Part shown: in pieces, positions 1 to 15,753 of the stretch
Layout of the letters: each line of letters opens with the position of its first letter
Position numbering within the stretch: position 1 is the stretch's first letter
Assembly: GCA_036230365.1 (NCBI GenBank)
Contig: JAZAJI010000041.1
Coordinates: 1 to 34,077, forward strand
DNA length: 34,077 nucleotides
Direction: 5' to 3'
Source: Pseudomonadota bacterium
GTDB lineage: Bacteria; Pseudomonadota; Alphaproteobacteria; MED-G09
The notes under the pieces: generated by a model
Database searches by the model: none
Told to the model about the DNA's origin: nothing
What the model saw: the letters and a program-made list of their open reading frames with translations, nothing else
Translations under genes and position numbers: made by a program

Positions 1-118
1 CACCTAATCTTAAAGCCGCACTTAGAAGAGTTTCACCTGACTCAACAGTGAATTCCTCATCATAGCCTTCTATTGATGCTGTAAAGTTTTTTTTATTTTT
101 TCTAAAAAAATTAATCAT
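1..118 (-). CDS. N-terminus of a 2Fe-2S ferredoxin/reductase (XylA-like monooxygenase electron-transfer component), runs off the window edge
   Basis: Manually translated from ATG at 118: MINFFRKNKKNFTASIEGYDEEFTVESGETLLSAALRLG. The 'F.V..GETLL.AALR.G' stretch is the typical start of a plant-type 2Fe-2S domain. It lies 10 nt downstream of the XylM-like gene, as in xylMA/cymAaAb. The Cys motifs are outside the window. Confidence 0.75.
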   Translation of the reverse strand, partial: MINFFRKNKKNFTASIEGYDEEFTVESGETLLSAALRLG

Positions 119-128
119 TTTTTAATCT

Positions 129-1250
129 TTATGTAGTAATTAACTTTTCATCAAAATGTTTAGTATTTTGGTAATAATCTTTAGCGATATTTCTTTCAGC
201 TTCAGAGGCTTGATTTTTATCCCAATTATCTAAATATTTTTGTGTATAAGCACGAAATAAAGGTGGCACCAAGGTTAATAAGAAAAGAGTGAAATAACCT
301 ATTTGATAATTTGGTGCACCTACTTCATCGAGCTCCCAAAAATAAGTCTCACCTCTTACATGATGATCACCTTGTCTACCAATCTCTATAAAAAACCAAC
401 TTGTAAAAAGGTTATCATTATCCCAAGAATGCCTATGTTCTACAGGTTTCCCATCTTCTCGGATTAAACCATAATGACCCATAAAGTTTAAAGCTTCCAA
501 TAAAAAATTAGAAAGACTCCATACAACAATGATAGAAATTATGCCAATAATTCCACCTGACCATGTAAAAAGAATTATACTTGGTAAACTGTACAAATAA
601 CCAAGTAACCATTTGTTGTTTAACGAGAAAAAAGACTTATTTTGTTTTTTTAACTTTTCTTTCTCCAAGTCAAAAGAAAATTTTGATTGACCTACGTGAG
701 ATAACCAAGTGTGCCAATACACATTTCTTCCTCTTGGGGCAGTAGCAGGATCATTCTCATGACCTAACTCTAAATGGTGTTGATATACATGCGCATAAGT
801 AAAATGTGCAGCTCCACTTAAGGCCATAATTGCCCTAGATATAGAAAAACCCTCTTTTTTATTATGAGATAATTCGTGGCCATAAATAATTCCAAGGCCA
901 GCCCATAAACCTGTCGAGATTACTGAGCCGATTATTGAACTAATTAAAATTTCATTAGTAGTCGTAAAAAAATATAGATTATAAGCTAAAGCGAATTGTA
1001 GTGTTATGAAAATTGGAAGCATTAAATACATCACTAGATATTGAAAAATTTTAATGCCGTATGAATTACCGCTGTTATCAAAATCTGCTCTCAAATGAAT
1101 ATTTTTTGTTAAAGTATCTAAGATTATATTAAGCCCAAATAGAAATACTCCAGTCCAGGCATAAATATCACCTAAAAATAGTCCAATTATCGTCAAGACT
1201 GTCATCACAGGAACAATCAAATAACGGACATTTACATAAAATGTTTTCAT
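129..1250 (-). CDS. Membrane-bound non-heme di-iron monooxygenase, AlkB/XylM/CymAa family
   Basis: Several TM segments plus His boxes HELSH, HVYQHH, NFMGHYG (HYG motif) and a variant last box RQGDHH. The N-terminus (RYLIVPV...) and C-terminus (PPLF...WD) resemble XylM. ATG at 1250 follows GGAG (1257-1260); the ORF track starts at 1262. Confidence 0.88.
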   Translation of the reverse strand: MKTFYVNVRYLIVPVMTVLTIIGLFLGDIYAWTGVFLFGLNIILDTLTKNIHLRADFDNSGNSYGIKIFQYLVMYLMLPIFITLQFALAYNLYFFTTTNEILISSIIGSVISTGLWAGLGIIYGHELSHNKKEGFSISRAIMALSGAAHFTYAHVYQHHLELGHENDPATAPRGRNVYWHTWLSHVGQSKFSFDLEKEKLKKQNKSFFSLNNKWLLGYLYSLPSIILFTWSGGIIGIISIIVVWSLSNFLLEALNFMGHYGLIREDGKPVEHRHSWDNDNLFTSWFFIEIGRQGDHHVRGETYFWELDEVGAPNYQIGYFTLFLLTLVPPLFRAYTQKYLDNWDKNQASEAERNIAKDYYQNTKHFDEKLITT

Positions 1251-1290
1251 GGAAAACTCCATCTTTTTTAGTTAAATCCTGGGAAAATTT

Positions 1291-1341
1291 TCCGTTTTAG
1301 CACTTTTTTTTAAATCGCGGCAATAGGATCAAATCACGATT
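1291..1341 (-). ncRNA. SAM-II (SAM-alpha) riboswitch aptamer
   Basis: Minus strand reads AATCGT-GATTT-GATCCTA-TTGC-C-GCGATT-TAAAAAAAAGT-GCTAAAA-CGGA. It has P1 (AAUCGU/GCGAUU), the conserved GAUUU loop, UUGC/GCUAA pseudoknot helix P2b, UCC/GGA helix P2a and an A-rich L3. Element order and spacing match the SAM-II pseudoknot as I recall it. Confidence 0.88.
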
Positions 1342-1397
1342 AAATAAAGATTAATAATAATTATTAGTTTTGTAAAGATTATATTAAAATAATTTAT

Positions 1398-2231
1398 ATG
1401 GATATTTCGTTTGAATTTTTTCCTCCTAATTCTTCTGAGGCCGAGAAAAAACTCTGGTCATCAATTAAGTTATTGGAACCATTGAATCCTAAGTTTGTAT
1501 CAGTAACTTATGGAGCTGGAGGGTCAACAAGGGAAAGAACTCATGATTGTGTAAGTAAAATTTTAAAAGAAACATCTTTAATACCTGCAGCACACTTAAC
1601 TTGTGTTAGCGCAACAAAGGATCAAACAGAAGAAATTATTGAAGATTATAAATATGCAGGCGTTAAACATATTGTCGCCTTAAGAGGCGATATGCCGGAT
1701 ATGAAAAAATTTAAACCTCACCCTGAAGGTTATAAATCTTCTATAGATCTTATAACAAGACTTAAAAAAGATAACTTTGATATTACTGTCAGTGCTTATC
1801 CTGAGAAACATCCAGATGCTGAATCTTTGGATAGTGACATTGATTTTCTCAAGAGAAAAATAGATGCAGGGGCTTCTTCTGCTATTACTCAGTTTTGTTT
1901 TGAAATTGATTATCTCCTCAATTTTAGGGATAAACTGAAAAAGGCAAATATAAATATTCCAATCATTCCAGGTATTATTCCTACAACTAATTTTACTGGT
2001 ATTAAGAAAATGGCCAATAAATGCGGTGCTTCTATACCTATATGGTTAGAAAATGCATACGAAGGATTAGAAAATAATTTAGAAGAAAGAAAAAAAATTT
2101 CTGAAGAGATTGCAATAGATTTTTCGATGAATATTAAAAAAAATGGATTTGAATCCATACACTTTTATACCCTTAATCAATCAGAACTAGCACTTTCTGT
2201 TTGTAAAAAACTCAACATTGGGTATTTATAA
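1398..2231 (+). CDS. metF: 5,10-methylenetetrahydrofolate reductase
   Basis: SFEFFPP, VSVTYGAGGSTR, AHLTCV, ALRGD, AYPEKHP, AITQF and HFYTLN motifs; directly upstream of metH. Confidence 0.97.
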   Translation: MDISFEFFPPNSSEAEKKLWSSIKLLEPLNPKFVSVTYGAGGSTRERTHDCVSKILKETSLIPAAHLTCVSATKDQTEEIIEDYKYAGVKHIVALRGDMPDMKKFKPHPEGYKSSIDLITRLKKDNFDITVSAYPEKHPDAESLDSDIDFLKRKIDAGASSAITQFCFEIDYLLNFRDKLKKANINIPIIPGIIPTTNFTGIKKMANKCGASIPIWLENAYEGLENNLEERKKISEEIAIDFSMNIKKNGFESIHFYTLNQSELALSVCKKLNIGYL

Positions 2232-2234
2232 TTT

Positions 2235-5200
2235 ATGAAATGGAATCATAAAAAGAGAATTAAAGAATTACCTAATTTATTAAAAAAGAAAATATTAATT
2301 CTTGATGGTGCAATGGGTACAATGATTCAAGAAGAAAGTCTTTCTGAAGAAGACTTTAGAGGTAAAAGATTTATAGATCACCCTACAGATCTATATGGTA
2401 ATAATGATATTTTATCAATAACTAGACCAGACTTGATTGCTAATATTCATAATCAATTTTTAATGGCCGGTAGTAATATTATTGAAACAAACTCATTCTC
2501 ATCAACAAAGATTTCTCAAAGTGATTATGGTTTAGAAGATTTATCATACGAATTAAATTTTGAAAGCGCTAGGATTGCAAGAAGAGAGTGTGATTTATTT
2601 GAGAAAAAGTTTCCTGAAGAACCAAAATATGTTGCTGGTGCACTTGGCCCTACTAATAAAACAGCATCTTTGTCTCCAGATGTTTCCGATCCTGGAAAGA
2701 GAGATATTACATATGATGAATTATTTGAAAGTTACTATGAATCTACCAAAGGTTTATCAGAAGGTGGTTCCGATATAATTCTTATAGAAACTATATTTGA
2801 TACATTAAATGCGAAAGCCGCAATTCATGCAGTTAATAATTATTTTGAAGATTCAAATTCTAAATTACCAATTATAATCTCAGGAACTATTACTGATAAA
2901 TCAGGAAGAACCCTATCTGGACAAACAACAGAGGCTTTTTGGAACTCTATTAGGCACGCAAATCCAATTGCAGTTGGTCTAAATTGTGCTTTAGGCGGAA
3001 AAGAAATGGAACCATATGTTGCTGAATTCTCTAGAATAGCTGATACATATATTTGTATTTATCCTAATGCCGGTCTTCCTAATGAATTTGGTGATTATGA
3101 TGAATCGCCAAATGATATGTCAAAAGTCTTAGATAATTTTGCTAAAGAAGGATACTTAAATATTATTGGAGGATGTTGTGGAACAACTCCAGTTCACATA
3201 AATGAAATATCTAAAGCTGTTTCAAATCATAAACCAAGAAAAATTCCCAAAATTAAAAAGTTAATGCGTCTTTCTGGGTTAGAACCTCTTAATTTAACCA
3301 AGGAAATTCCATTCGTGAATATTGGAGAAAGAACAAATATTACTGGATCATTAAAATTTAAAAAATTAATTACAGAAGAAAAATACTCTTCTGCTTTAAA
3401 TGTTGCAAGAGAGCAAGTTAATAATGGAGCCCAAATTATTGATATTAATATGGATGAAGGAATGTTGGACTCAAAATCAATAATGAAACACTTTTTGAAA
3501 ATGGCTTCCACCGAACCAGATATTGCAAGAGTTCCCTTTATGATAGATAGCTCAAATTGGGATGTTATCGAAGAAGGTCTTAAACATATTCAAGGGAAAG
3601 CTGTTGTTAATTCTATATCCCTTAAAGAAGGTGAAGATGAATTTTTAAGGCAAGCAAATTTATGTAAAAAATATGGTGCTTCAGTAATAGTAATGGCTTT
3701 TGATGAAGAAGGACAAGCGGATACAGAGGATCGAAAATTTGCAATATGCAAAAGAGCATATAATTTATTGACAAAAAAAATTAATTTTTCTGCTGAAGAT
3801 ATAATATTTGATCCAAATATTTTTGCTGTAGCAACAGGAATTGAAGAGCATAATGAATATGGATTAGCCTTTATAAATGCCACTAAAAGGATAAAAAAAG
3901 AGCTAAAAGGTGCTCATGTTTCTGGTGGAGTTTCTAATTTCTCATTCTCCTTTAGAGGTAATGATCATATTAGAGAATCCATGCATTCAATTTTCTTATT
4001 CCACGCTATAAAAAATGGTCTTGATATGGGGATAGTTAATTCTGGGCAATTAACAATATATGAAGATATTGAAAAAAAACTTAAGAAGTGTATTGAAGAT
4101 GTTCTCTTTAATAAAAAAAATGATGCTACTGAAAGTCTAATTCAATTAGCAGAAAAATATAAAGACAAAAAAAATGAAATTATTAAAACAACTGAAGAAT
4201 GGAGGAAAGAAGAAGTTGCCGAACGCTTAAAGTACTCACTGGTAAAAGGGATAAGTGAATTTATATGTGAAGATACTGAAGAGGCTAGAATCAAATTAGG
4301 CAGTCCTATTTCTGTTATTGAAGGACCATTAATGGATGGAATGAATCATATAGGTGATTTATTTGGCTCAGGAAAAATGTTTCTTCCCCAAGTAGTAAAG
4401 TCAGCCAGAGTAATGAAAGAATCAGTAGCTTATCTAGAGCCATTTATGGAAGAAGAGAATAAAAAAAGTGAGATTAAAAAAGAGGTAGGAAAAGTTTTAT
4501 TAGCAACTGTTAAAGGAGATGTTCATGATATTGGAAAAAACATAGTGAGCGTTATATTGCAGTGCAATAATTACGAAGTTATTGATCTTGGTGTCATGGT
4601 TCCATGTAATGAAATTCTAGAAAAAGCAAAACAAGAAAAAGTAGATATAATTGGTTTATCTGGACTAATTACACCTAGCCTTGATGAGATGTGTTTTGTT
4701 GCAAAAGAAATGGAAAAAAATAATTTCGATATTCCGCTTCTTATAGGCGGTGCCACTACAAGCAAAGTACACACTGCAGTTAGAATATCTGAAAACTATT
4801 CTAAGGGACAAACTGTTTATGTTCCAAATGCAAGTAAAGCTGTCGGTGTAGCGAGCAATCTCTTATCAAATGATAAAAAATTAAGTTTTATTTCTGAAAC
4901 AAAAAAAGAATATGAAAGCATAAGAACTAAACATAATAGTAAAAATAAAAAATCAAGACACCTATCTTTGGACGACGCAAGAAAAAATAGGTTTAAACAT
5001 AATTATACCTCTTACAAACCTACTAGGCCGTCATTTCTTGGTACAAAGATATTTAAAAATTATAAAATTGAAGACTTACGGAATTATATAGATTGGACTC
5101 CCTTTTTTAGATCATGGGATCTACATGGTAATTATCCAAAGATATTTAAAGATAAAAAAGTTGGAGAATCTGCAAATTCACTTTTTTTAGATGCAAATAA

Positions 5201-5942
5201 TTTACTAGATAAAATTATTAAGGAAAACCTCTTGGAGGCAAGAGCGGTTATTGGTTTTTGGCCTGCAAACAGTAATGATGATGATATATTAGTTTTCAAA
5301 GATGATAAAAGAGATGAAACAGTTAGTGTTTTTCAAACTATCCGGCAACAAACTCTTCATTCAAAAGAAAGACCTAATTTTTCCTTATCAGATTTTATTG
5401 CCCCATATTCAAAAAACAATAATGTCGAAGATTATATAGGTGGTTTTGCATTAACTTGTGGAATTGGAGAGAGTGATTTATCAAATAAATTCAAAAATAA
5501 TGGTGACGATTATAATTCAATTATGACAAAGGCTATAGCAGATAGGTTGGTCGAGGCTTTTGCAGAAAAAATGCATGAACAAGTAAGAAAAGAATTCTGG
5601 GGATACTCGCCTAATGAAAACTTTACAAACGAACAGCTTATAAATGAATCATATATAGGTATAAGACCTGCGCATGGATATCCAGCTCAACCAGATCATA
5701 CTGAAAAAGAAAAATTATTTAAAATATTAGATGCTGAAGAAAACATAGGGATACATTTAACAGAAAGTTATGCTATGTCACCTGGAGCATCAATTTCAGG
5801 GTTATATTTTAGTCATCCAAAAAGTTCTTATTTTGGCGTAGGAAGAATAAATAAAGATCAAGTTGAGGATTATGCCAGAAGAAAATCTATATCATTATCA
5901 GAATGTGAAAAATGGCTACTGCCAATTTTGAATTACAAATGA
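2235..5942 (+). CDS. metH: Cobalamin-dependent methionine synthase
   Basis: 1235 aa with [16 protein letters not shown] (Zn/Hcy site), IGERTN pterin-binding domain, [13 protein letters not shown]12-binding motif and C-terminal [12 protein letters not shown] reactivation domain. Confidence 0.98.
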
Positions 5943-7033
5943 AAATTAGTTTCACCATAAAAATATTTCTTTTTACTTCTGTTCTTATTTTAAATTCATG
6001 CGGAACCCCTACAACAGTTATAAAAAGAGGGCAAATAGAAGAAATAGATAAAGAAAGAATAATTATGCAAGGAATTGCTCTAAATACTTATTATAAAAGA
6101 TTAGAGAGAATAAATAATTTAGCTTATCCTTTACTTTTAGAATCAATAGATTTTTGTAAAAATAATATAAAATATGACCTTGGAATAAAGACGATTTCTT
6201 TAAATCAAATAGATAAAAGGTTTCAAAATGCTGCTTCTGATAAACTTTTTATAACAGAAGAACAAAAAGTATTATTCGTAATCAAAGATTCGCCAGGATA
6301 TATCGCTGGAATACGATCAGGAGACATAATAAAAACTCTTTCTTCTAAATCATTTAAATGGGTTAATGATGATATCTTTCTTAATAATGAAAGGAAAAAT
6401 TATTCTAAAGAAAAGGTAGAAATAACAATTAAAAGAAAAAATTTAATAGATGCCAATAATACTAGTACAATTGATAAAATATTAACCTTTAATATTAAAC
6501 CTAATGCTATATGTGGTTATGGCGTATTTTTAGTACAAGATGACTCTTTAAATGCTTACGCAGATGGTAAAAACTTATATGTAACTCAAGGAATGTTAAG
6601 ATTTATCGATGAGGATAAAGAATTACAATTTATTCTAGCTCATGAATTAGCTCACAATACTGAAGGTCACATTAGTAAAAGAACTAATAATTCTATTTTA
6701 GGCACAATACTTGATATCGCAGCTGCAGGAGCAGGTATTGATACAAGAGGGAGTTTTGGCGCAATTGGAGCTCAAATGTACTCACAAGATTTCGAAAGAG
6801 AAGCAGATTATGTAGGTCTATATATTCTTGCAAAATCTAAAATTGAATCTACTAATATTGAAAATTTTTGGAGAAAACTTGCTGCGGAAAGCCCGGGATC
6901 AACCATTAATTACAATTCATCTCACCCAACATCTCCCGAAAGATGGGCAAATATAAAAGAAACACAAAAAGAAATTAGGTATAAAGAAGAAAATGGAATA
7001 GACCTTAAGCCTGAAAGAGTAAAAAATAACTAA
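5939..7033 (+). CDS. M48-family zinc metallopeptidase with PDZ-like domain, probable lipoprotein
   Basis: [17 protein letters not shown] and SHP motifs. The '[14 protein letters not shown]' segment is PDZ-like and there is a lipobox-like LNSC. Start ATG 5939 overlaps the metH stop (ATGA); the ORF track starts at 5912. Confidence 0.85.
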
Positions 7034-8225: not shown

Positions 8226-8609
8226 ATGAAGTTAATTATAAACATATTGTGTTATTTAGTTGGTTTAATCTGGCTAGCCGCAGGTCTATCTGGGATAATT
8301 GACCCCTTATACACATTTACTGAAAGCCCTTATGCAAGTCTTCACGTCCAAGTTACTGGTGATTTAGGTACAAGCGATATGAGAGCCTTTGGCGGTTTAT
8401 TAACTGCTTTAGGATTAGGAATTCTATATGCTACACAAAATTCTTCAGGAAAAAGAAGTTGGTTTTCAGCTTTTGCATTTTTAATGTTGGGTTTAGCTCT
8501 TGGAAGAACAATAAGTCTATATATGGAAGGGCCTGACCAAACATTAATAATTTTTGCAGTGGTAGAATATTCAATAGCCTTAATTCTTTTCTTAAAATCA
8601 AGATATTAA
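8226..8609 (+). CDS. Small 4-TM membrane protein (DUF4345-like)
   Basis: Four hydrophobic helices with 'SDMRAFGG' and 'LGRTISLYMEG' patterns; AGGA before the ATG. Confidence 0.7.
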   Translation: MKLIINILCYLVGLIWLAAGLSGIIDPLYTFTESPYASLHVQVTGDLGTSDMRAFGGLLTALGLGILYATQNSSGKRSWFSAFAFLMLGLALGRTISLYMEGPDQTLIIFAVVEYSIALILFLKSRY

Positions 8610-9406
8610 TATTTAAAAAAATTAATAATATCATCCCATGCTTGAGGAGACTCAAGAAAAAAAGCATGGCCCCCTTTATAAAATTTTTTCTCAGAATTAA
8701 TTATAAGATTATTTAAAATATCAATATTGTCCTTGGGGGCAATGCCATCAAAAAGACCTCCTGCTATAAAAGTTGAACATTTTATTTTTTTAAGATTCAT
8801 ACATGTATCGTGATTTTTTCTTGCCTCTAATTGTAATAGTTTTCCATTCTTTTTTTGTTGACCTGAACCTCTCATATAATTCTTAATCTGATTAACAGTA
8901 GACTCATATAACTCTGGATTAGCTTTTATAAATTCTCCATTTATTCTTGTATCAGATATTGAAACAAATTTTTTTGCGTATTCATTATCATCTGTAATAC
9001 TTTCAAGCTCATGTAGCGGATAAGAGTGATAATCCTTTCCTCCTGGTGATGTACATAAAAGTGCTAATTTTTTTACTTTATCTGGAAATTCAATAGCTAA
9101 GTGTTGCGCAACCATCCCACCAAAGCTTACTCCTATAACATTAGTTTCTTCCCAGCCTAATTCTTCTAAAAGACTGAAAGCATCATCAGCATAATCTTTC
9201 ATTGTATATGGTCCTTTAGGTATCTCACTTTGACCCAATCCTCTTTGATCGAATGCTAATAAACAAAAATTATCTTTTAAATTATTATCGAAAGCATTTG
9301 GTGAAAATCTTAGATCTCCTCCAGTCCCAGATATAAAGAGAAGATTATCTCCTTCTCCTTTCATTTCGTAATAAATTTTTATTCTATCGGTTTGAAGGTG
9401 TGGCAA
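8606..9406 (-). CDS. Alpha/beta-fold hydrolase (enol-lactone hydrolase-like)
   Basis: FDQRGLGQS, nucleophile elbow GVSFGG, Asp in GLFDGI and His in GGHAF. TTG start 3 nt after the Rieske gene stop. Confidence 0.88.
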   Translation of the reverse strand: MPHLQTDRIKIYYEMKGEGDNLLFISGTGGDLRFSPNAFDNNLKDNFCLLAFDQRGLGQSEIPKGPYTMKDYADDAFSLLEELGWEETNVIGVSFGGMVAQHLAIEFPDKVKKLALLCTSPGGKDYHSYPLHELESITDDNEYAKKFVSISDTRINGEFIKANPELYESTVNQIKNYMRGSGQQKKNGKLLQLEARKNHDTCMNLKKIKCSTFIAGGLFDGIAPKDNIDILNNLIINSEKKFYKGGHAFFLESPQAWDDIINFFKY

Positions 9407-9409
9407 AAA

Positions 9410-10678
9410 TTACTTCTCAATAAAAGGTGATAAAATATCTTCAGCAACAATTTCTTTTTTAATATTATCACGACCAACCCAATCATCTACAGTTTGATGA
9501 TAATAATAAATTCGTCTTTCTTGATAATTTAATGGCATTTTACTAAATACACCTGAATCATGAGATTTTTGCATGGGTTCAAGATTCTTGAAGTCTTCTT
9601 CCATAATAGAATGAAAAGAAGTTTCCTGATCTACCCAATATTGCGGTTTTTCCTTTCCATCCCATTTTGGGCCTAATTGCATATATTCAATTTCTGTTTC
9701 CCTTAAACTTTTTGGCCAGAACAAGATTGCAACATAGCCAGATGTGTCAGTGGGTGTAATGAAATTTGGAAATAAAGCATAAGCAACATTTGTTTCAGCA
9801 TGAATGCTATCACAGGTTTCAATATAAGGAACAAAATCTTGCCCTTCTGCGCCTAACATACCTCCATCGAGATTCATTCTTTTAGGAGTAACCATTCTTG
9901 AATGACCATTTTTTAATAACCCGGCAGCCATCCCATTACCATCAAGTAAAATATTAACGGTATCTTTATGAATGGTTGGTGAATGATAAACCTCCATAAA
10001 TGCATCTAAACAAGTCTTCCAGTTTGCTTTGACATCAGTACTGTGTTTCCAAATTGTAGCTAATTCTGATCCTCTAAAACATTCCATTTCTGAAGCTACT
10101 GGATTAATAAAATCAATTAAATCCATTGGCTTTTCTTCTGACAGGGAAACAAAAATCCATCCATCCCAAGTATCACAATGAACCTTTTTCAAACCTCTGC
10201 AAGAAAGATCAAGGTTTAAGAAATCTCTTTCATCAGGCACTCTTATAAGCGAACCATCTAAGTCGTATGCCCAACTGTGATATTGGCATTTTAATAATTT
10301 CGCATTTCCTTCTTTTTCCCTTACAACAGGTGCGCCTCTATGAGAACAAGTATTATAAAAAGCTTTTAAACTTTTATTTTTTTGCCTTACAACAACTATA
10401 TCTCTTTGAAGTTTATCAAATATCTTAAAATCGCCTGGATTCGGTATTTCGTCTTCTCTAAAAATCATTAACCATGACTTTAAGAAAATATTACTAAATT
10501 CTAATTCAAAAAATTCTTCGTCGGTATATCTCTTTCCTGACAAATCAGGTATTTGAGGAAAACCATCTGGATACGAATTTCTTTTATACTCAAATTCTAT
10601 ATTTTTCCTAATTTCTTTTATTTTATCAGGATGCATAAAACTATCCCCCATCACGAGCATATTACTAATCAATTTCAC
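9410..10678 (-). CDS. Rieske non-heme iron oxygenase alpha subunit
   Basis: Rieske CSH...CQYH motif, NWK, mononuclear Fe ligands YHSPTIH and ED. Exact start uncertain (GTG 10678 or a downstream ATG). Confidence 0.92.
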   Translation of the reverse strand: MKLISNMLVMGDSFMHPDKIKEIRKNIEFEYKRNSYPDGFPQIPDLSGKRYTDEEFFELEFSNIFLKSWLMIFREDEIPNPGDFKIFDKLQRDIVVVRQKNKSLKAFYNTCSHRGAPVVREKEGNAKLLKCQYHSWAYDLDGSLIRVPDERDFLNLDLSCRGLKKVHCDTWDGWIFVSLSEEKPMDLIDFINPVASEMECFRGSELATIWKHSTDVKANWKTCLDAFMEVYHSPTIHKDTVNILLDGNGMAAGLLKNGHSRMVTPKRMNLDGGMLGAEGQDFVPYIETCDSIHAETNVAYALFPNFITPTDTSGYVAILFWPKSLRETEIEYMQLGPKWDGKEKPQYWVDQETSFHSIMEEDFKNLEPMQKSHDSGVFSKMPLNYQERRIYYYHQTVDDWVGRDNIKKEIVAEDILSPFIEK

Positions 10679-14547: not shown

Positions 14548-15753
14548 TTAAAAATAATATCTTAAACTTATATAAGCAGTATTAGGATTAATACCATATT
14601 CAGAATTTAAAAGAATATCGTTTCCTACGTATCTTAATCTACTAGAACCAAAAAACTTATAATATCCTAGGTCCAAATATAGATTGTCAGTTAAGTGTCG
14701 TTCTATACTTAATGATGAAAATGCAGAATGGTCATCCTGATTATAAATAGCTTGAAAGCTTAAGGCGGTTACAGGCGAGATTTGTACATTTAGACCACTG
14801 GAAAAATATTTTTTTCCTAAAAGAAAAACACCATGCTCCTTATATGCATCCCTTTCATATTGTTTAAGATATTGATCAGGGGAAGATGATCCAATACCGT
14901 TATAATGATATTCAACCATAAAATAAATATTATCTGTAATAGCGTGATCTAAACCAATAGAGGCTCTTGTGTAATCGTCATCTCCAGTTACATTTGCAAT
15001 TTCCAACCAATATCCACTATCGCCTATTGCGCCTTGTATACCAGCCCCTAAAAGAAAGAGTGAATCTGTATCAACAAAGGTAATTTGAAAATCCTGTCCT
15101 TGAATACGACTTGAAATTCTAGCATAAGCAGCAGAATTTTTTCTTTCACCATCTTTTCCAAAAATAAGTCCTGTATCTAATTCTCCTAATGTACCAATTG
15201 GTTTTTGAAAACGTATAGCATCAATTCCAGGCCTAAACTCAGTATTTAATGTTCTTATATCAAATGGTAAAAACACATCTACTGGATTTATAAACCTTGA
15301 AGATCCTAGAGATATAGCCTGCCTACCAATAGTCAAATCCCCTGAATTAAGTTGAAATTGAATATTTAATCGATCAAGGTTCTGCCGAAGAGTATGTTTA
15401 TCCTTTTTCGAAATTTCACGATTTAAATCACTAAACCGATAAATACCATTCTCTGATTGATTTTCATTAGATAAACCCAATAAACCGTATGATGATAATT
15501 GTTCAGAACTATTAATTGAATCAACCTCATAATGAATTTCCCAAGCAGGGCCTGAATCAGTCGATTCAATTTGAAATCTTAAGGTAGACTGAAATAATTC
15601 CATTTTGGGTAACTCGATTGCCTCAATATTTTTTTTGTTTTGAGAAACCAAATAAGTTTTTAAATAACCTGAAAATTCGGCACTATATATATTGGGAGGT
15701 AAGAGAATTAATATTAATACCAATATAAATTTAGGCATTATTATTGCTTTCAT
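14548..15753 (-). CDS. Putative outer-membrane beta-barrel protein
   Basis: Signal peptide, 'LTIGRQAISLG...NPVD' porin-like motif, alternating beta strands and C-terminal aromatic (LRYYF). Last gene of the Lol-like operon. Confidence 0.72.
   Translation of the reverse strand: MKAIIMPKFILVLILILLPPNIYSAEFSGYLKTYLVSQNKKNIEAIELPKMELFQSTLRFQIESTDSGPAWEIHYEVDSINSSEQLSSYGLLGLSNENQSENGIYRFSDLNREISKKDKHTLRQNLDRLNIQFQLNSGDLTIGRQAISLGSSRFINPVDVFLPFDIRTLNTEFRPGIDAIRFQKPIGTLGELDTGLIFGKDGERKNSAAYARISSRIQGQDFQITFVDTDSLFLLGAGIQGAIGDSGYWLEIANVTGDDDYTRASIGLDHAITDNIYFMVEYHYNGIGSSSPDQYLKQYERDAYKEHGVFLLGKKYFSSGLNVQISPVTALSFQAIYNQDDHSAFSSLSIERHLTDNLYLDLGYYKFFGSSRLRYVGNDILLNSEYGINPNTAYISLRYYF

What the first reader, a model, noticed from the sequence alone, without database searches (positions are those of the whole stretch)
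1..1341. SAM-II riboswitch controls a XylM/AlkB-type monooxygenase operon: candidate new route for methionine, sulfur or methyl supply
Seen: a complete SAM-II pseudoknot (1291-1341) on the minus strand, 40 nt upstream of the di-iron monooxygenase and its XylA-like reductase, and pointing away from the adjacent metF-metH. Established: SAM-II riboswitches normally repress methionine/SAM supply genes such as metX, metK, metY and bhmT, whereas AlkB/XylM enzymes are catabolic methyl hydroxylases controlled by protein regulators. Inference: this enzyme is switched on by SAM starvation, so it is probably not a hydrocarbon catabolic enzyme. One candidate reaction is S-methyl hydroxylation of dimethyl sulfide or another methyl-thioether, giving a thiol (e.g. 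methanethiol) plus formaldehyde. Formaldehyde could enter methylene-THF -> MetF -> MetH, encoded next door. I know of no described SAM-regulated AlkB/XylM subfamily.
Basis: partly seen in the sequence, partly recalled or inferred. Interest (0 to 1): 0.92.

Follow-up and report, generated by a model that had tools for sequence, protein, structure and literature searches.

The report
SAM-switched AlkB-like monooxygenase operon
An RNA switch that senses the methionine-derived cofactor SAM really does sit in front of a membrane iron oxygenase in this marine bacterium and its relatives, and the enzyme is probably a way to obtain usable sulfur from a small methylated sulfur compound such as dimethyl sulfide, not an oil-degrading enzyme.

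Summary
Window 1341-1275 (- strand) is a SAM-II-type pseudoknot, 24 nt upstream of an AlkB-like di-iron monooxygenase gene. It scores 32.3 bits against Rfam SAM_alpha (cut-off 36), because a hairpin is inserted into the pseudoknot's 3' side.

The link to the gene is not chance. Every ortholog of at least about 60% identity that had upstream DNA carries a SAM riboswitch. There are three classes: the SAM-II variant, SAM-V, and SAM-I/IV plus SAM-V in tandem. These genes form one clade.

G000 has only two SAM_alpha hits: this one and the metY leader.

The "XylA-like reductase" is a 102-aa 2Fe-2S ferredoxin. A conserved ~70-aa membrane protein completes the system. The metF-metH neighbourhood is confined to the window's own subclade.

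The carrier genomes tested lack sulfite reductase and PAPS reductase.

The riboswitch-less sister clade co-occurs with methanethiol oxidase (13 of 14 genomes; 4.7-22 kb apart in 7 of 7 same-contig cases). It sits in a Methylophaga-labelled family whose first DMS-degrading enzyme is unknown.

Best reading: a SAM-repressed membrane monooxygenase that converts DMS, or a similar methyl thioether, to methanethiol plus formaldehyde for MetY. No substrate has been tested.

The parts
1275..1341 (-). SAM-II-type aptamer. P1 is 1341-1335 with 1319-1313. P2b is 1323-1320 with 1301-1297. The inserted hairpin P3 is 1293-1290 with 1285-1282. P2a is 1330-1325 with 1280-1275.
   Evidence: RF00521 32.3 bits, E 1.1e-5. 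One of only two RF00521 hits in the genome. 97.3% pairing and two compensatory P1 pairs in 21 leaders. Own model R1 finds 49 copies in 81 loci.
1360..1387 (-). Promoter-like site (TTAATA, 16 nt, AATAAT) that would start the transcript just 5' of the aptamer.
   Evidence: Consensus scan, 9 of 12 matches. Weak: 4 sites were found against 7.6 expected in shuffles.
1248..1260 (-). Shine-Dalgarno GGAG (1260-1257) and the likely start codon AUG (1250-1248). No intrinsic terminator lies in the leader.
   Evidence: Sequence. Database homologs are 373 aa, which fits this start. Terminator scan found 0.
129..1250 (-). AlkB-like membrane di-iron monooxygenase, 373 aa, with a third histidine box that reads QxxHH.
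   Evidence: PF00487 78 bits. AlkB structures 8sbb and 8f6t at E 3e-27 and 5e-26. AF2 model (pLDDT 65.6) matches only these two, TM 0.62-0.63. Q in 11 of 11 in-group rows against H in 9 of 9 outgroup rows.
1..118 (-). First 39 codons of a plant-type 2Fe-2S ferredoxin gene, cut by the contig end.
   Evidence: 39 of 39 identical to the N-terminus of the 102-aa Fer2 protein of G001. The window is the whole contig.
1398..5942 (+). Divergent neighbours metF (1398-2231) and metH (2235-5942). They are not part of the operon.
   Evidence: TIGR00676 316.7 bits and NF007024 2075 bits. metF adjacency in only 5 of 74 related loci.

Best explanation
The leader RNA (1341-1275, - strand) is a SAM-II riboswitch variant. 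When SAM is plentiful it shuts down an operon of three components: an AlkB-like membrane di-iron hydroxylase, a 2Fe-2S ferredoxin, and a ~70-aa two-helix membrane subunit. The last two lie beyond the contig end here but are seen whole in G001.

Proposed pathway when SAM is scarce, in an organism that apparently cannot reduce sulfate:
1. The enzyme is made.
2. It hydroxylates an S-methyl group of a small hydrophobic thioether, most likely dimethyl sulfide.
3. The hemithioacetal falls apart into methanethiol and formaldehyde.
4. MetY, which carries the only other SAM-II riboswitch in this genome, joins methanethiol to O-acetylhomoserine to give methionine.

Shown: the aptamer, its conservation, the operon content, the co-regulated set, and the lack of sulfate reduction.

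Inferred: OFF-switch logic, control at translation (no terminator; SD 15 nt after the pseudoknot), the substrate, the products, and the hand-over to MetY.
For: Riboswitch-gene link:
- 10 of 10 family loci.
- 18 of 24 genome loci and 31 of 34 metagenome loci with upstream DNA.
- Three classes are used. In the g3 loci the SAM-V 3' strand abuts the SD 5 nt before the AUG.
- All 39 riboswitch-bearing proteins form one clade (95/98) in a 56-row tree.

SAM regulon:
- G000 has two RF00521 hits, metY and this gene. G001, G012 and G013 show the same metY hit.
- In G001 and G012, SAM-I/IV precedes an OmpW-family porin. OmpW barrels are channels for small hydrophobic molecules (recalled).

Sulfur need:
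- NIR_SIR found in 0 of 5 carrier genomes. PAPS_reduct over cut-off in 0 of 5. Controls were 11 of 14 and 14 of 14.
- metY over cut-off in 4 of 5.

Link to methanethiol in the riboswitch-less sister clade (51-54% identical, same hydroxylase + Fer2 + small-subunit set):
- In 83 genomes of one family: hydroxylase in 14, methanethiol oxidase in 15, both in 13, neither in 67. Fisher 2.7e-12, but kin are not independent.
- In 7 of 7 genomes with both genes on one contig they lie 4.7-22 kb apart.
- In L049 the mto-SCO1/MauG-peroxiredoxin-persulfide dioxygenase cluster lies 4.6 kb from hydroxylase-globin-GST-Fer2/FNR reductase-small subunit-FadL.

Literature (PMC6548844, passages):
- M. thiooxydans has no dmoA or ddh, and its first DMS step is unknown.
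- DMS-induced transcripts include a 'fatty acid desaturase', an NAD(P)H flavin reductase and a FadL-type porin.
- NCBI calls the M. sulfidovorans member of this family 'fatty acid desaturase'.

Small subunit: complex prediction 0.89, against a best control of 0.00. That mark was reached by 58 of 80 solved complexes and 2 of 110 mismatched pairs. Runs agree in at least 86% of contacts and partner pLDDT is at least 86. My own 8-row alignments were used, so the counts hold only roughly.
Against: - No substrate, product or SAM binding was measured.
- The aptamer is below Rfam's curated cut-off in the window (32.3 against 36). Only 1 of the scanned copies (L041, 36.8) passes it.
- Covariation is thin. 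The core is nearly invariant and only 2 of 21 pairs change on both sides.
- The expression platform is unresolved. The leader's fold energy equals that of shuffles (z 0.06).
- PMC6548844 cites Boden 2010: no DMS monooxygenase activity was detected in DMS-grown M. thiooxydans extracts, and a methyltransferase was proposed. The authors read the induced desaturase as lipid repair.
- I could not show that MDMS009_226 belongs to this family. A same-family genome with two MTO copies has two PF00487 genes.
- The functional link rests on a clade only 51-54% identical to the window's protein.
- SAR86 genome G042 has no metY over cut-off.
- OmpW- and FadL-type porins also serve alkane uptake.
Confidence: 0.5

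Rival explanations
1. It is an ordinary alkane (hydrocarbon) hydroxylase, as automatic annotation says. The SAM riboswitch reflects some indirect link, or none.
For: - Best solved relatives are AlkB (E 3e-27; TM 0.62-0.63).
- JGI and KEGG-type labels read 'alkane 1-monooxygenase' / K00496.
- OmpW (AlkL-like, recalled) and FadL porins fit alkane import.
- A paper title implicates Methylophaga in hydrocarbon degradation (PMC3936186, search listing only).
- Ocean surveys count SAR86 alkB genes as alkane consumers (PMC13488336 and PMC10176705, passages).
Against: - Three SAM riboswitch classes were recruited to one clade.
- No NCBIfam AlkB model matches.
- The family sits on a branch of length 3.61, apart from other AlkB-like proteins and 41% identical or less to them.
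- The third box is QxxHH.
- No alcohol or aldehyde dehydrogenase lies in the operons read.
- Linkage is to methanethiol oxidase.
Confidence: 0.12
2. The chemistry is the same but the substrate differs. One option is methanethiol itself, giving sulfide plus formaldehyde. Others are another methylthio compound (methylthiopropionate, dimethyl disulfide), or a non-sulfur methyl compound whose formaldehyde feeds methylene-THF, MetF and MetH.
For: - SAM shortage can reflect lack of methyl groups as well as lack of sulfur.
- In the window's subclade the cassette abuts metF-metH.
- Carriers G042 and G043 have no methanethiol oxidase, so a methanethiol-cleaving role would not be redundant there.
- In Pelagibacter, SAM riboswitches also control the methyl-donor enzyme bhmT (PMC5069961, passages).
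Against: - In the Methylophaga-labelled family the enzyme co-occurs with methanethiol oxidase instead of replacing it (13 of 14).
- metF adjacency is seen in only 5 of 74 loci.
- Porin partners point to a hydrophobic, uncharged substrate.
Confidence: 0.2
3. It is a SAM-sparing enzyme: an O2-dependent di-iron desaturase or hydroxylase that replaces a SAM-consuming step (lipid or cofactor modification) when SAM is scarce. This would be like B12 riboswitches that control B12-independent isozymes.
For: - The FA_desaturase superfamily includes lipid desaturases and hydroxylases.
- QxxHH third boxes are known from front-end lipid desaturases (recalled).
- The authors of PMC6548844 read the DMS-induced desaturase as membrane repair.
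Against: - It does not explain the tie to methanethiol oxidase, the FadL/OmpW partners, or the dedicated ferredoxin/reductase.
- The closest folds are AlkB, not acyl-lipid desaturases.
Confidence: 0.1
4. The aptamer is a relic or a chance match and does not regulate the gene.
For: Sub-threshold Rfam score, no recognisable expression platform, and no transcription start mapped.
Against: Near-invariant conservation of the aptamer across alpha- and gammaproteobacterial carriers, and replacement by SAM-V or SAM-I/IV in sister subclades.
Confidence: 0.03

Closest known systems
SAM-II riboswitch (Rfam SAM_alpha RF00521; metA/metX/metY leaders of Alphaproteobacteria)
   Same: The P1 helix, the AUUU loop, the UUGC / GCUAAA P2b strands and the P2a pseudoknot are all present. 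The same genome uses a canonical copy, with a terminator, in front of metY.
   Different: A hairpin of variable length (12 nt here; about 37 nt in L041 by my count) is inserted between the 3' strands of P2b and P2a. This drops the score to 25-36.8 bits. There is no terminator. The controlled gene is an oxygenase, not a Met/SAM biosynthesis gene.
Tandem SAM-II / SAM-V leader of bhmT in 'Ca. Pelagibacter ubique'
   Same: Stacked SAM aptamers of different classes lie in front of one gene of a reduced-sulfur auxotroph (PMC5069961 and PMC2704228, passages). Here: SAM-I/IV + SAM-V (L007-L010), canonical + variant SAM-II (L034), and two variant copies (L037, L038, L108, L113).
   Different: Different class combinations and a different kind of gene. 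A SAM-I/IV + SAM-V pairing was not mentioned in the passages I read.
AlkB alkane 1-monooxygenase with rubredoxin AlkG (PDB 8F6T, 8SBB)
   Same: Same fold and His-rich di-iron site: HELxH, HxxxHH and HYG are conserved.
   Different: Identity is 21-23% in the structural alignment. The third box is QxxHH. The electron donor is a 2Fe-2S ferredoxin, not a rubredoxin. There is an extra ~70-aa membrane subunit. No NCBIfam AlkB model matches.
XylM/XylA xylene monooxygenase
   Same: An AlkB-type hydroxylase fed by a plant-type 2Fe-2S domain. In the riboswitch-less clade this domain is fused to an FNR reductase, as in XylA (the XylA architecture is recalled).
   Different: In the window's clade only the ferredoxin is encoded. 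No XylM sequence was available to compare, so this is a recalled resemblance and not a tested one.
DmoA, the FMNH2-dependent DMS monooxygenase of Hyphomicrobium
   Same: It is the only enzyme listed for DMS to methanethiol in the 2026 review PMC13360808 (passage). It catalyses the reaction proposed here.
   Different: It is a soluble flavin enzyme and unrelated in sequence (recalled). Methylophaga lacks it (PMC6548844). The resemblance would be in function only.

Membership tests
SAM-II riboswitch (RF00521 SAM_alpha) | Covariance-model score at or above the curated gathering score (36 bits) | tested here: not met
   32.3 bits in the window. 22.5-36.8 bits in the copies upstream of orthologs, and only L041 passes. 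The metY copies of the same genomes score 51.5-66.5.
SAM-II riboswitch (RF00521 SAM_alpha) | P1 helix supported by compensatory change | tested here: met
   7 pairs, 95.9% paired. Pairs 5-33 and 6-32 change on both sides (AU to UA, AU to GC) in 4 and 5 of 21 leaders.
SAM-II riboswitch (RF00521 SAM_alpha) | H-type pseudoknot (P2a, P2b) and conserved ligand-site nucleotides | tested here: met
   P2a 98.4% and P2b 100% paired. Slid controls give 23-54%. The AUUU, UUGC and GCUAAA blocks are invariant in 21 of 21. P2b never varies, so it neither supports nor refutes the pairing.
SAM-II riboswitch (RF00521 SAM_alpha) | Binds SAM and discriminates against SAH | not testable with these tools
   Needs in-line probing or ITC.
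AlkB alkane 1-monooxygenase | FA_desaturase-superfamily membrane fold closest to AlkB | tested here: met
   PF00487 78 bits. 8sbb and 8f6t at E 3e-27 and 5e-26. Foldseek TM 0.62-0.63, with no other hit at E <= 0.001. The model is only moderate (pLDDT 65.6).
AlkB alkane 1-monooxygenase | Full histidine set: HELxH, HxxxHH, HxxHH, HYG | tested here: not met
   The first His of the third box is Gln in 11 of 11 family members, against His in 9 of 9 other AlkB-like representatives. The other boxes are kept.
AlkB alkane 1-monooxygenase | Match to a curated AlkB model, and placement among AlkB sequences | tested here: not met
   0 NCBIfam families. The family is separated from 6 AlkB-like representatives by a branch of 3.61 (100/100). 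The nearest other full-length clusters are 41% identical or less.
AlkB alkane 1-monooxygenase | Rubredoxin partner and alkane substrate | tested here: not met
   The partner is a Fer2 ferredoxin or a Fer2-FNR protein. The substrate is not testable here.
XylM/XylA-type two-component monooxygenase | Hydroxylase followed by a Fer2-FNR fused reductase | tested here: not met
   In the window's clade the partner is a 100-112-aa ferredoxin alone. The fused form occurs only in the riboswitch-less clade.

The most novel reading that the evidence does not exclude
This family is the missing membrane-bound DMS monooxygenase of marine bacteria. [quoted passage not shown] In SAR86 and a streamlined alphaproteobacterial family it sits behind SAM riboswitches as a gated route that moves DMS sulfur, via methanethiol and MetY, straight into methionine. 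Together with a SAM-controlled OmpW porin, it would be an unrecognised biological sink for a climate-active gas. It would also mean that part of the 'alkB' signal in open-ocean surveys is not about hydrocarbons.
Probability: 0.4. Interest if true: 0.92.

Novelty: new variant of a known kind. Interest (0 to 1): 0.85.

Why it matters
- SAM riboswitches are taken to mark methionine and SAM supply genes. Here three classes of them mark an oxygenase system of unknown substrate, plus a porin. That makes the regulon a pointer to an undescribed sulfur or methyl acquisition route in abundant, uncultured ocean bacteria that cannot reduce sulfate.
- Only one enzyme (DmoA) is listed for DMS to methanethiol in a 2026 review (PMC13360808, passage). 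Known marine DMS degraders lack it (PMC6548844).
- A testable candidate for that step, with a ready genetic context in the Methylophaga-labelled family, addresses an open question in the marine sulfur cycle.
- There is a practical point too. Pipelines label this family alkane 1-monooxygenase / K00496, and ocean hydrocarbon-cycle surveys count SAR86 alkB genes (PMC13488336 and PMC10176705, passages). I did not show that those counted genes belong to this family.

Tried and rejected
**Tried, with little or no yield**
- Rfam at gathering thresholds missed the element.
- The minimum-free-energy fold of the leader is no better than shuffles (z 0.06). It gave no convincing SD-sequestering alternative, so I leave the expression platform open.
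- The promoter scan is uninformative in this AT-rich DNA: 4 sites found against 7.6 expected.
- RNA evidence. All four runs laid are stored as contigs, so no start, end or strand can be read.
  - One 1823-nt contig from an RNA library (X1, 96% alike) covers window 2-1318, from the ferredoxin gene through the hydroxylase into the aptamer.
  - A 254-nt contig (X3) bridges 1187-1440.
  - DNA carry-over cannot be excluded, so this shows presence only.
- The AlphaFold2 model from an 8-row alignment is only moderate (pLDDT 65.6; the catalytic loops are below 50). It supports the fold, not pocket size.
- The protein atlas knows the small subunit only as 'hypothetical protein' clusters.

**Rejected**
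- metF-metH adjacency as a general clue (5 of 74 loci).
- A XylA-type reductase in this clade.

**Considered and left open**
- The tRNA-Phe next to the cassette in alpha- and gammaproteobacterial carriers as an integration site. The tRNAs differ by lineage, so it was not a co-transferred tRNA.

**Literature searches for an earlier description**
- Searches found no description of a SAM-controlled AlkB-like gene or of an AlkB-type DMS monooxygenase. Searches returned 0 papers.
- The library lacks most subscription journals, and Poiata et al. 2009 was not held.
- Supplementary tables S4-S6 of PMC6548844 (fold changes, locus tags) are closed and bear directly on the MDMS009_226 question.
Full report
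**What is in the window**

The window is a complete 34,077-bp contig of a 1.06-Mb, 98-contig, 32% GC assembly that is 68% complete. On the minus strand lie, in order:
- a leader at 1350-1263;
- a 373-aa gene from AUG 1250 to stop 129;
- the first 39 codons of another gene, from 118 to the contig end.

Diverging on the plus strand are metF (1398-2231; TIGR00676, 316.7 bits) and metH (2235-5942; 2075 bits).

**The riboswitch**

Rfam at gathering thresholds reports nothing here. In E-value mode SAM_alpha (RF00521) matches 1276-1350 (-) at 32.3 bits against a cut-off of 36, with E 1.1e-5.

The shortfall has a structural cause. Aligning 21 leaders shows the canonical P1 helix, the AUUU loop, and the UUGC / GCUAAA strands. 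It also shows a hairpin (GGAA...UUCC) inserted before the 3' strand (CAGGAU) of the outer pseudoknot helix. That hairpin is 12 nt here, about 37 nt in the Kangiella-labelled L041 by my count, and variable elsewhere.

On that alignment 97.3% of cells pair, against 23-54% with slid partners. Two P1 pairs show compensatory change. The ligand-site helices never vary, so they say nothing either way.

In the whole assembly RF00521 hits only twice: the metY leader (51.5 bits, followed by a terminator) and this site.

**Is the link to the gene real?**

Yes.
- Own family. Among 24 genomes of the same family, 9 carry an ortholog (61-98% identity). With the window, all 10 loci have a SAM riboswitch immediately upstream.
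  - Six have the SAM-II variant (31.2-34.5 bits).
  - Four have SAM-I/IV (51.1-54.9 bits; cut-off 41.1) followed by a SAM-V-like element (25.7-40.6 bits, below its cut-off of 41). Its 3' strand abuts the SD 5 nt before the AUG.
- Named public genomes. 25 loci were found and 24 have upstream DNA. Of these, 18 have the variant. The carriers are labelled SAR86, MED-G09 alphaproteobacterium, Hyphomicrobiales, Halieaceae and Kangiella, among others. The six without it are 54% identical or less.
- Metagenomes. Of 40 loci I dropped six that lack the gene's 5' end (L093, L110, L116-L118, L120).
  - Of the other 34, 27 match my model R1.
  - Four more have SAM-V at 67-77 bits, where it precedes the small membrane ORF and then the hydroxylase.
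  - Three (54% identical or less) have nothing.
  - Some metagenome contigs duplicate MAG contigs, so the counts overlap.
- Second copies. L034, L037, L038, L108 and L113 carry a second SAM-II copy. In L034 it is of the canonical type, with a terminator.
- Phylogeny. In a 56-row maximum-likelihood tree all 39 riboswitch-bearing proteins form one clade (95/98), with subclades by riboswitch class.
- Transfer. The window's protein is sister to SAR86 proteins (100/99), not to those of its own family. The cassette has therefore moved between classes.

**The proteins**
- Hydroxylase.
  - It is a FA_desaturase-superfamily protein (78 bits). No NCBIfam model matches.
  - Its only solved relatives are AlkB structures (E 3e-27; model TM 0.62-0.63).
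  - It belongs to a tight family. The nearest full-length 50%-identity cluster is 54% identical, and the next are 41% or less. A branch of 3.61 separates the family from other AlkB-like proteins.
  - Its third box reads QxxHH in 11 of 11 members, against HxxHH in 9 of 9 others.
- Ferredoxin. The next gene is a stand-alone Fer2 ferredoxin.
- Small subunit.
  - A ~70-aa two-helix protein with invariant His, Asn, Tyr-Phe, Pro and Trp follows, or in the SAM-V loci precedes, in every clade.
  - A complex prediction places it on the hydroxylase: 0.89 against a best control of 0.00. That mark was reached by 58 of 80 solved complexes and 2 of 110 mismatched pairs. Contact agreement is at least 86% and partner pLDDT at least 86. 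My own alignments were used.
  - No such subunit appeared with AlkB in the solved structures found.
- Globin. A truncated globin is inserted in some clades.

**What it is likely for**

The carrier genomes tested (G000, G001, G012, G013, and SAR86 G042) gave:
- no sulfite reductase domain (0 of 5; controls 11 of 14);
- no PAPS reductase over cut-off (0 of 5; controls 14 of 14);
- metY in four of five.

The 2026 review PMC13360808 (passage) says SAR86 lacks sulfate assimilation.

In these alphaproteobacteria the SAM regulon found is metY, this operon, and an OmpW-family porin behind SAM-I/IV.

The riboswitch-less sister clade supplies the functional clue.
- In L049, from a Methylophaga-labelled MAG, two gene sets lie 4.6 kb apart:
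  - hydroxylase, globin, GST, Fer2-FNR reductase, small subunit and FadL-type porin;
  - methanethiol oxidase with SCO1/MauG, a peroxiredoxin, a persulfide dioxygenase-rhodanese and a sulfide:quinone-reductase-like gene.
- Across the 83 genomes of that family, 14 have the hydroxylase, 15 have the oxidase, 13 have both and 67 have neither.
- In all 7 genomes with both genes on one contig they lie 4.7-22 kb apart.
- These genomes are kin, so the Fisher value of 2.7e-12 overstates independence.

Krober and Schafer 2019 (PMC6548844, passages) report the following:
- M. thiooxydans lacks dmoA and ddh, and its first DMS enzyme is unknown.
- A 'fatty acid desaturase', an NAD(P)H flavin reductase and a FadL-like porin are highly induced on DMS.

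NCBI's name for the M. sulfidovorans member of this family is 'fatty acid desaturase'.

Methyl hydroxylation of DMS would give a hemithioacetal that splits into methanethiol and formaldehyde. This chemistry is inferred. MetY enzymes can condense methanethiol with O-acetylhomoserine (recalled; PMC5069961 places MeSH, metY and methionine in one scheme).

**What speaks against this reading**
- Nothing biochemical was tested.
- The paper also cites a failure to detect DMS monooxygenase activity in extracts. It prefers a methyltransferase, and it reads the desaturase as lipid repair.
- I could not confirm that the induced gene is a family member. A same-family genome with two oxidase copies has two PF00487 genes.
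- The inference crosses a gap of 51-54% identity.
- The expression platform is unresolved, and RNA contigs cannot show a start.
- Porins of these types also import alkanes.

**Verdict**

Regulation by SAM is very likely (about 0.9). DMS or a related thioether as substrate is the best single reading (about 0.5). The metF-metH link and the XylA-type reductase are not supported.

I found no earlier description in eight literature searches. The library has gaps, and supplements were closed.

Noticed in passing
L077 1501-1593(-) with gene 735-1397(-); L079 1501-1595(-) with gene 715-1392(-): In G001 and G012, a SAM-I/IV riboswitch (61.5 and 57.3 bits, over cut-off) precedes an OmpW-family outer-membrane porin. 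This is an unusual member of a SAM regulon and fits import of a small hydrophobic compound.
   Followed up: partly
L029 6324-6420(-), genes 6108-6323(-) and 4735-5904(-): In a SAR86 SAG, a strong SAM-I/IV riboswitch (74 bits) precedes a 71-aa ORF and a Rieske/Ring_hydroxyl_A oxygenase. They converge on the AlkB-like cassette. This is a second oxygenase under SAM control.
   Followed up: partly
L073 1501-1575(-), gene 1086-1481(-): SAR86 genome G042 has a second copy of the hairpin-bearing SAM-II variant. It sits in front of a 131-aa Gly/Ser-rich protein with an N-terminal hydrophobic segment and no Pfam family.
   Followed up: partly
L106 2034-2098(+), gene 2129-2581(+): A second SAM-V riboswitch (73 bits) lies downstream of the cassette and precedes a 150-aa QueF-like protein.
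   Followed up: no
L002 3217-3292; L026, L029, L037, L042 (tRNA-Phe); L024, L025 (tRNA-Ala): The cassette often ends next to a tRNA gene on the opposite strand. It is tRNA-Phe(GAA) in both alpha- and gammaproteobacterial carriers. The tRNA sequences differ by lineage. This suggests a shared insertion hot spot, not a co-transferred tRNA.
   Followed up: partly
L049 8270-11187(-): In the riboswitch-less clade, a CbbQ/NorQ-type AAA protein and a 697-aa VWA (NorD-like) protein lie divergently next to the hydroxylase. They are possibly a metal-insertion chaperone pair for the di-iron site.
   Followed up: no
window 9410-10678(-) and 8606-9406(-): A Rieske oxygenase whose best NCBIfam match is the glycine betaine monooxygenase subunit GbcA (127.5 bits, far below its 670 cut-off) lies next to an alpha/beta hydrolase. 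Rieske oxygenases also flank the cassette in L016 and L029.
   Followed up: no
window 14548-15753(-): A 401-aa ORF with no Pfam family sits directly upstream of ABC-ATPase and FtsX/MacB-type permease genes.
   Followed up: no
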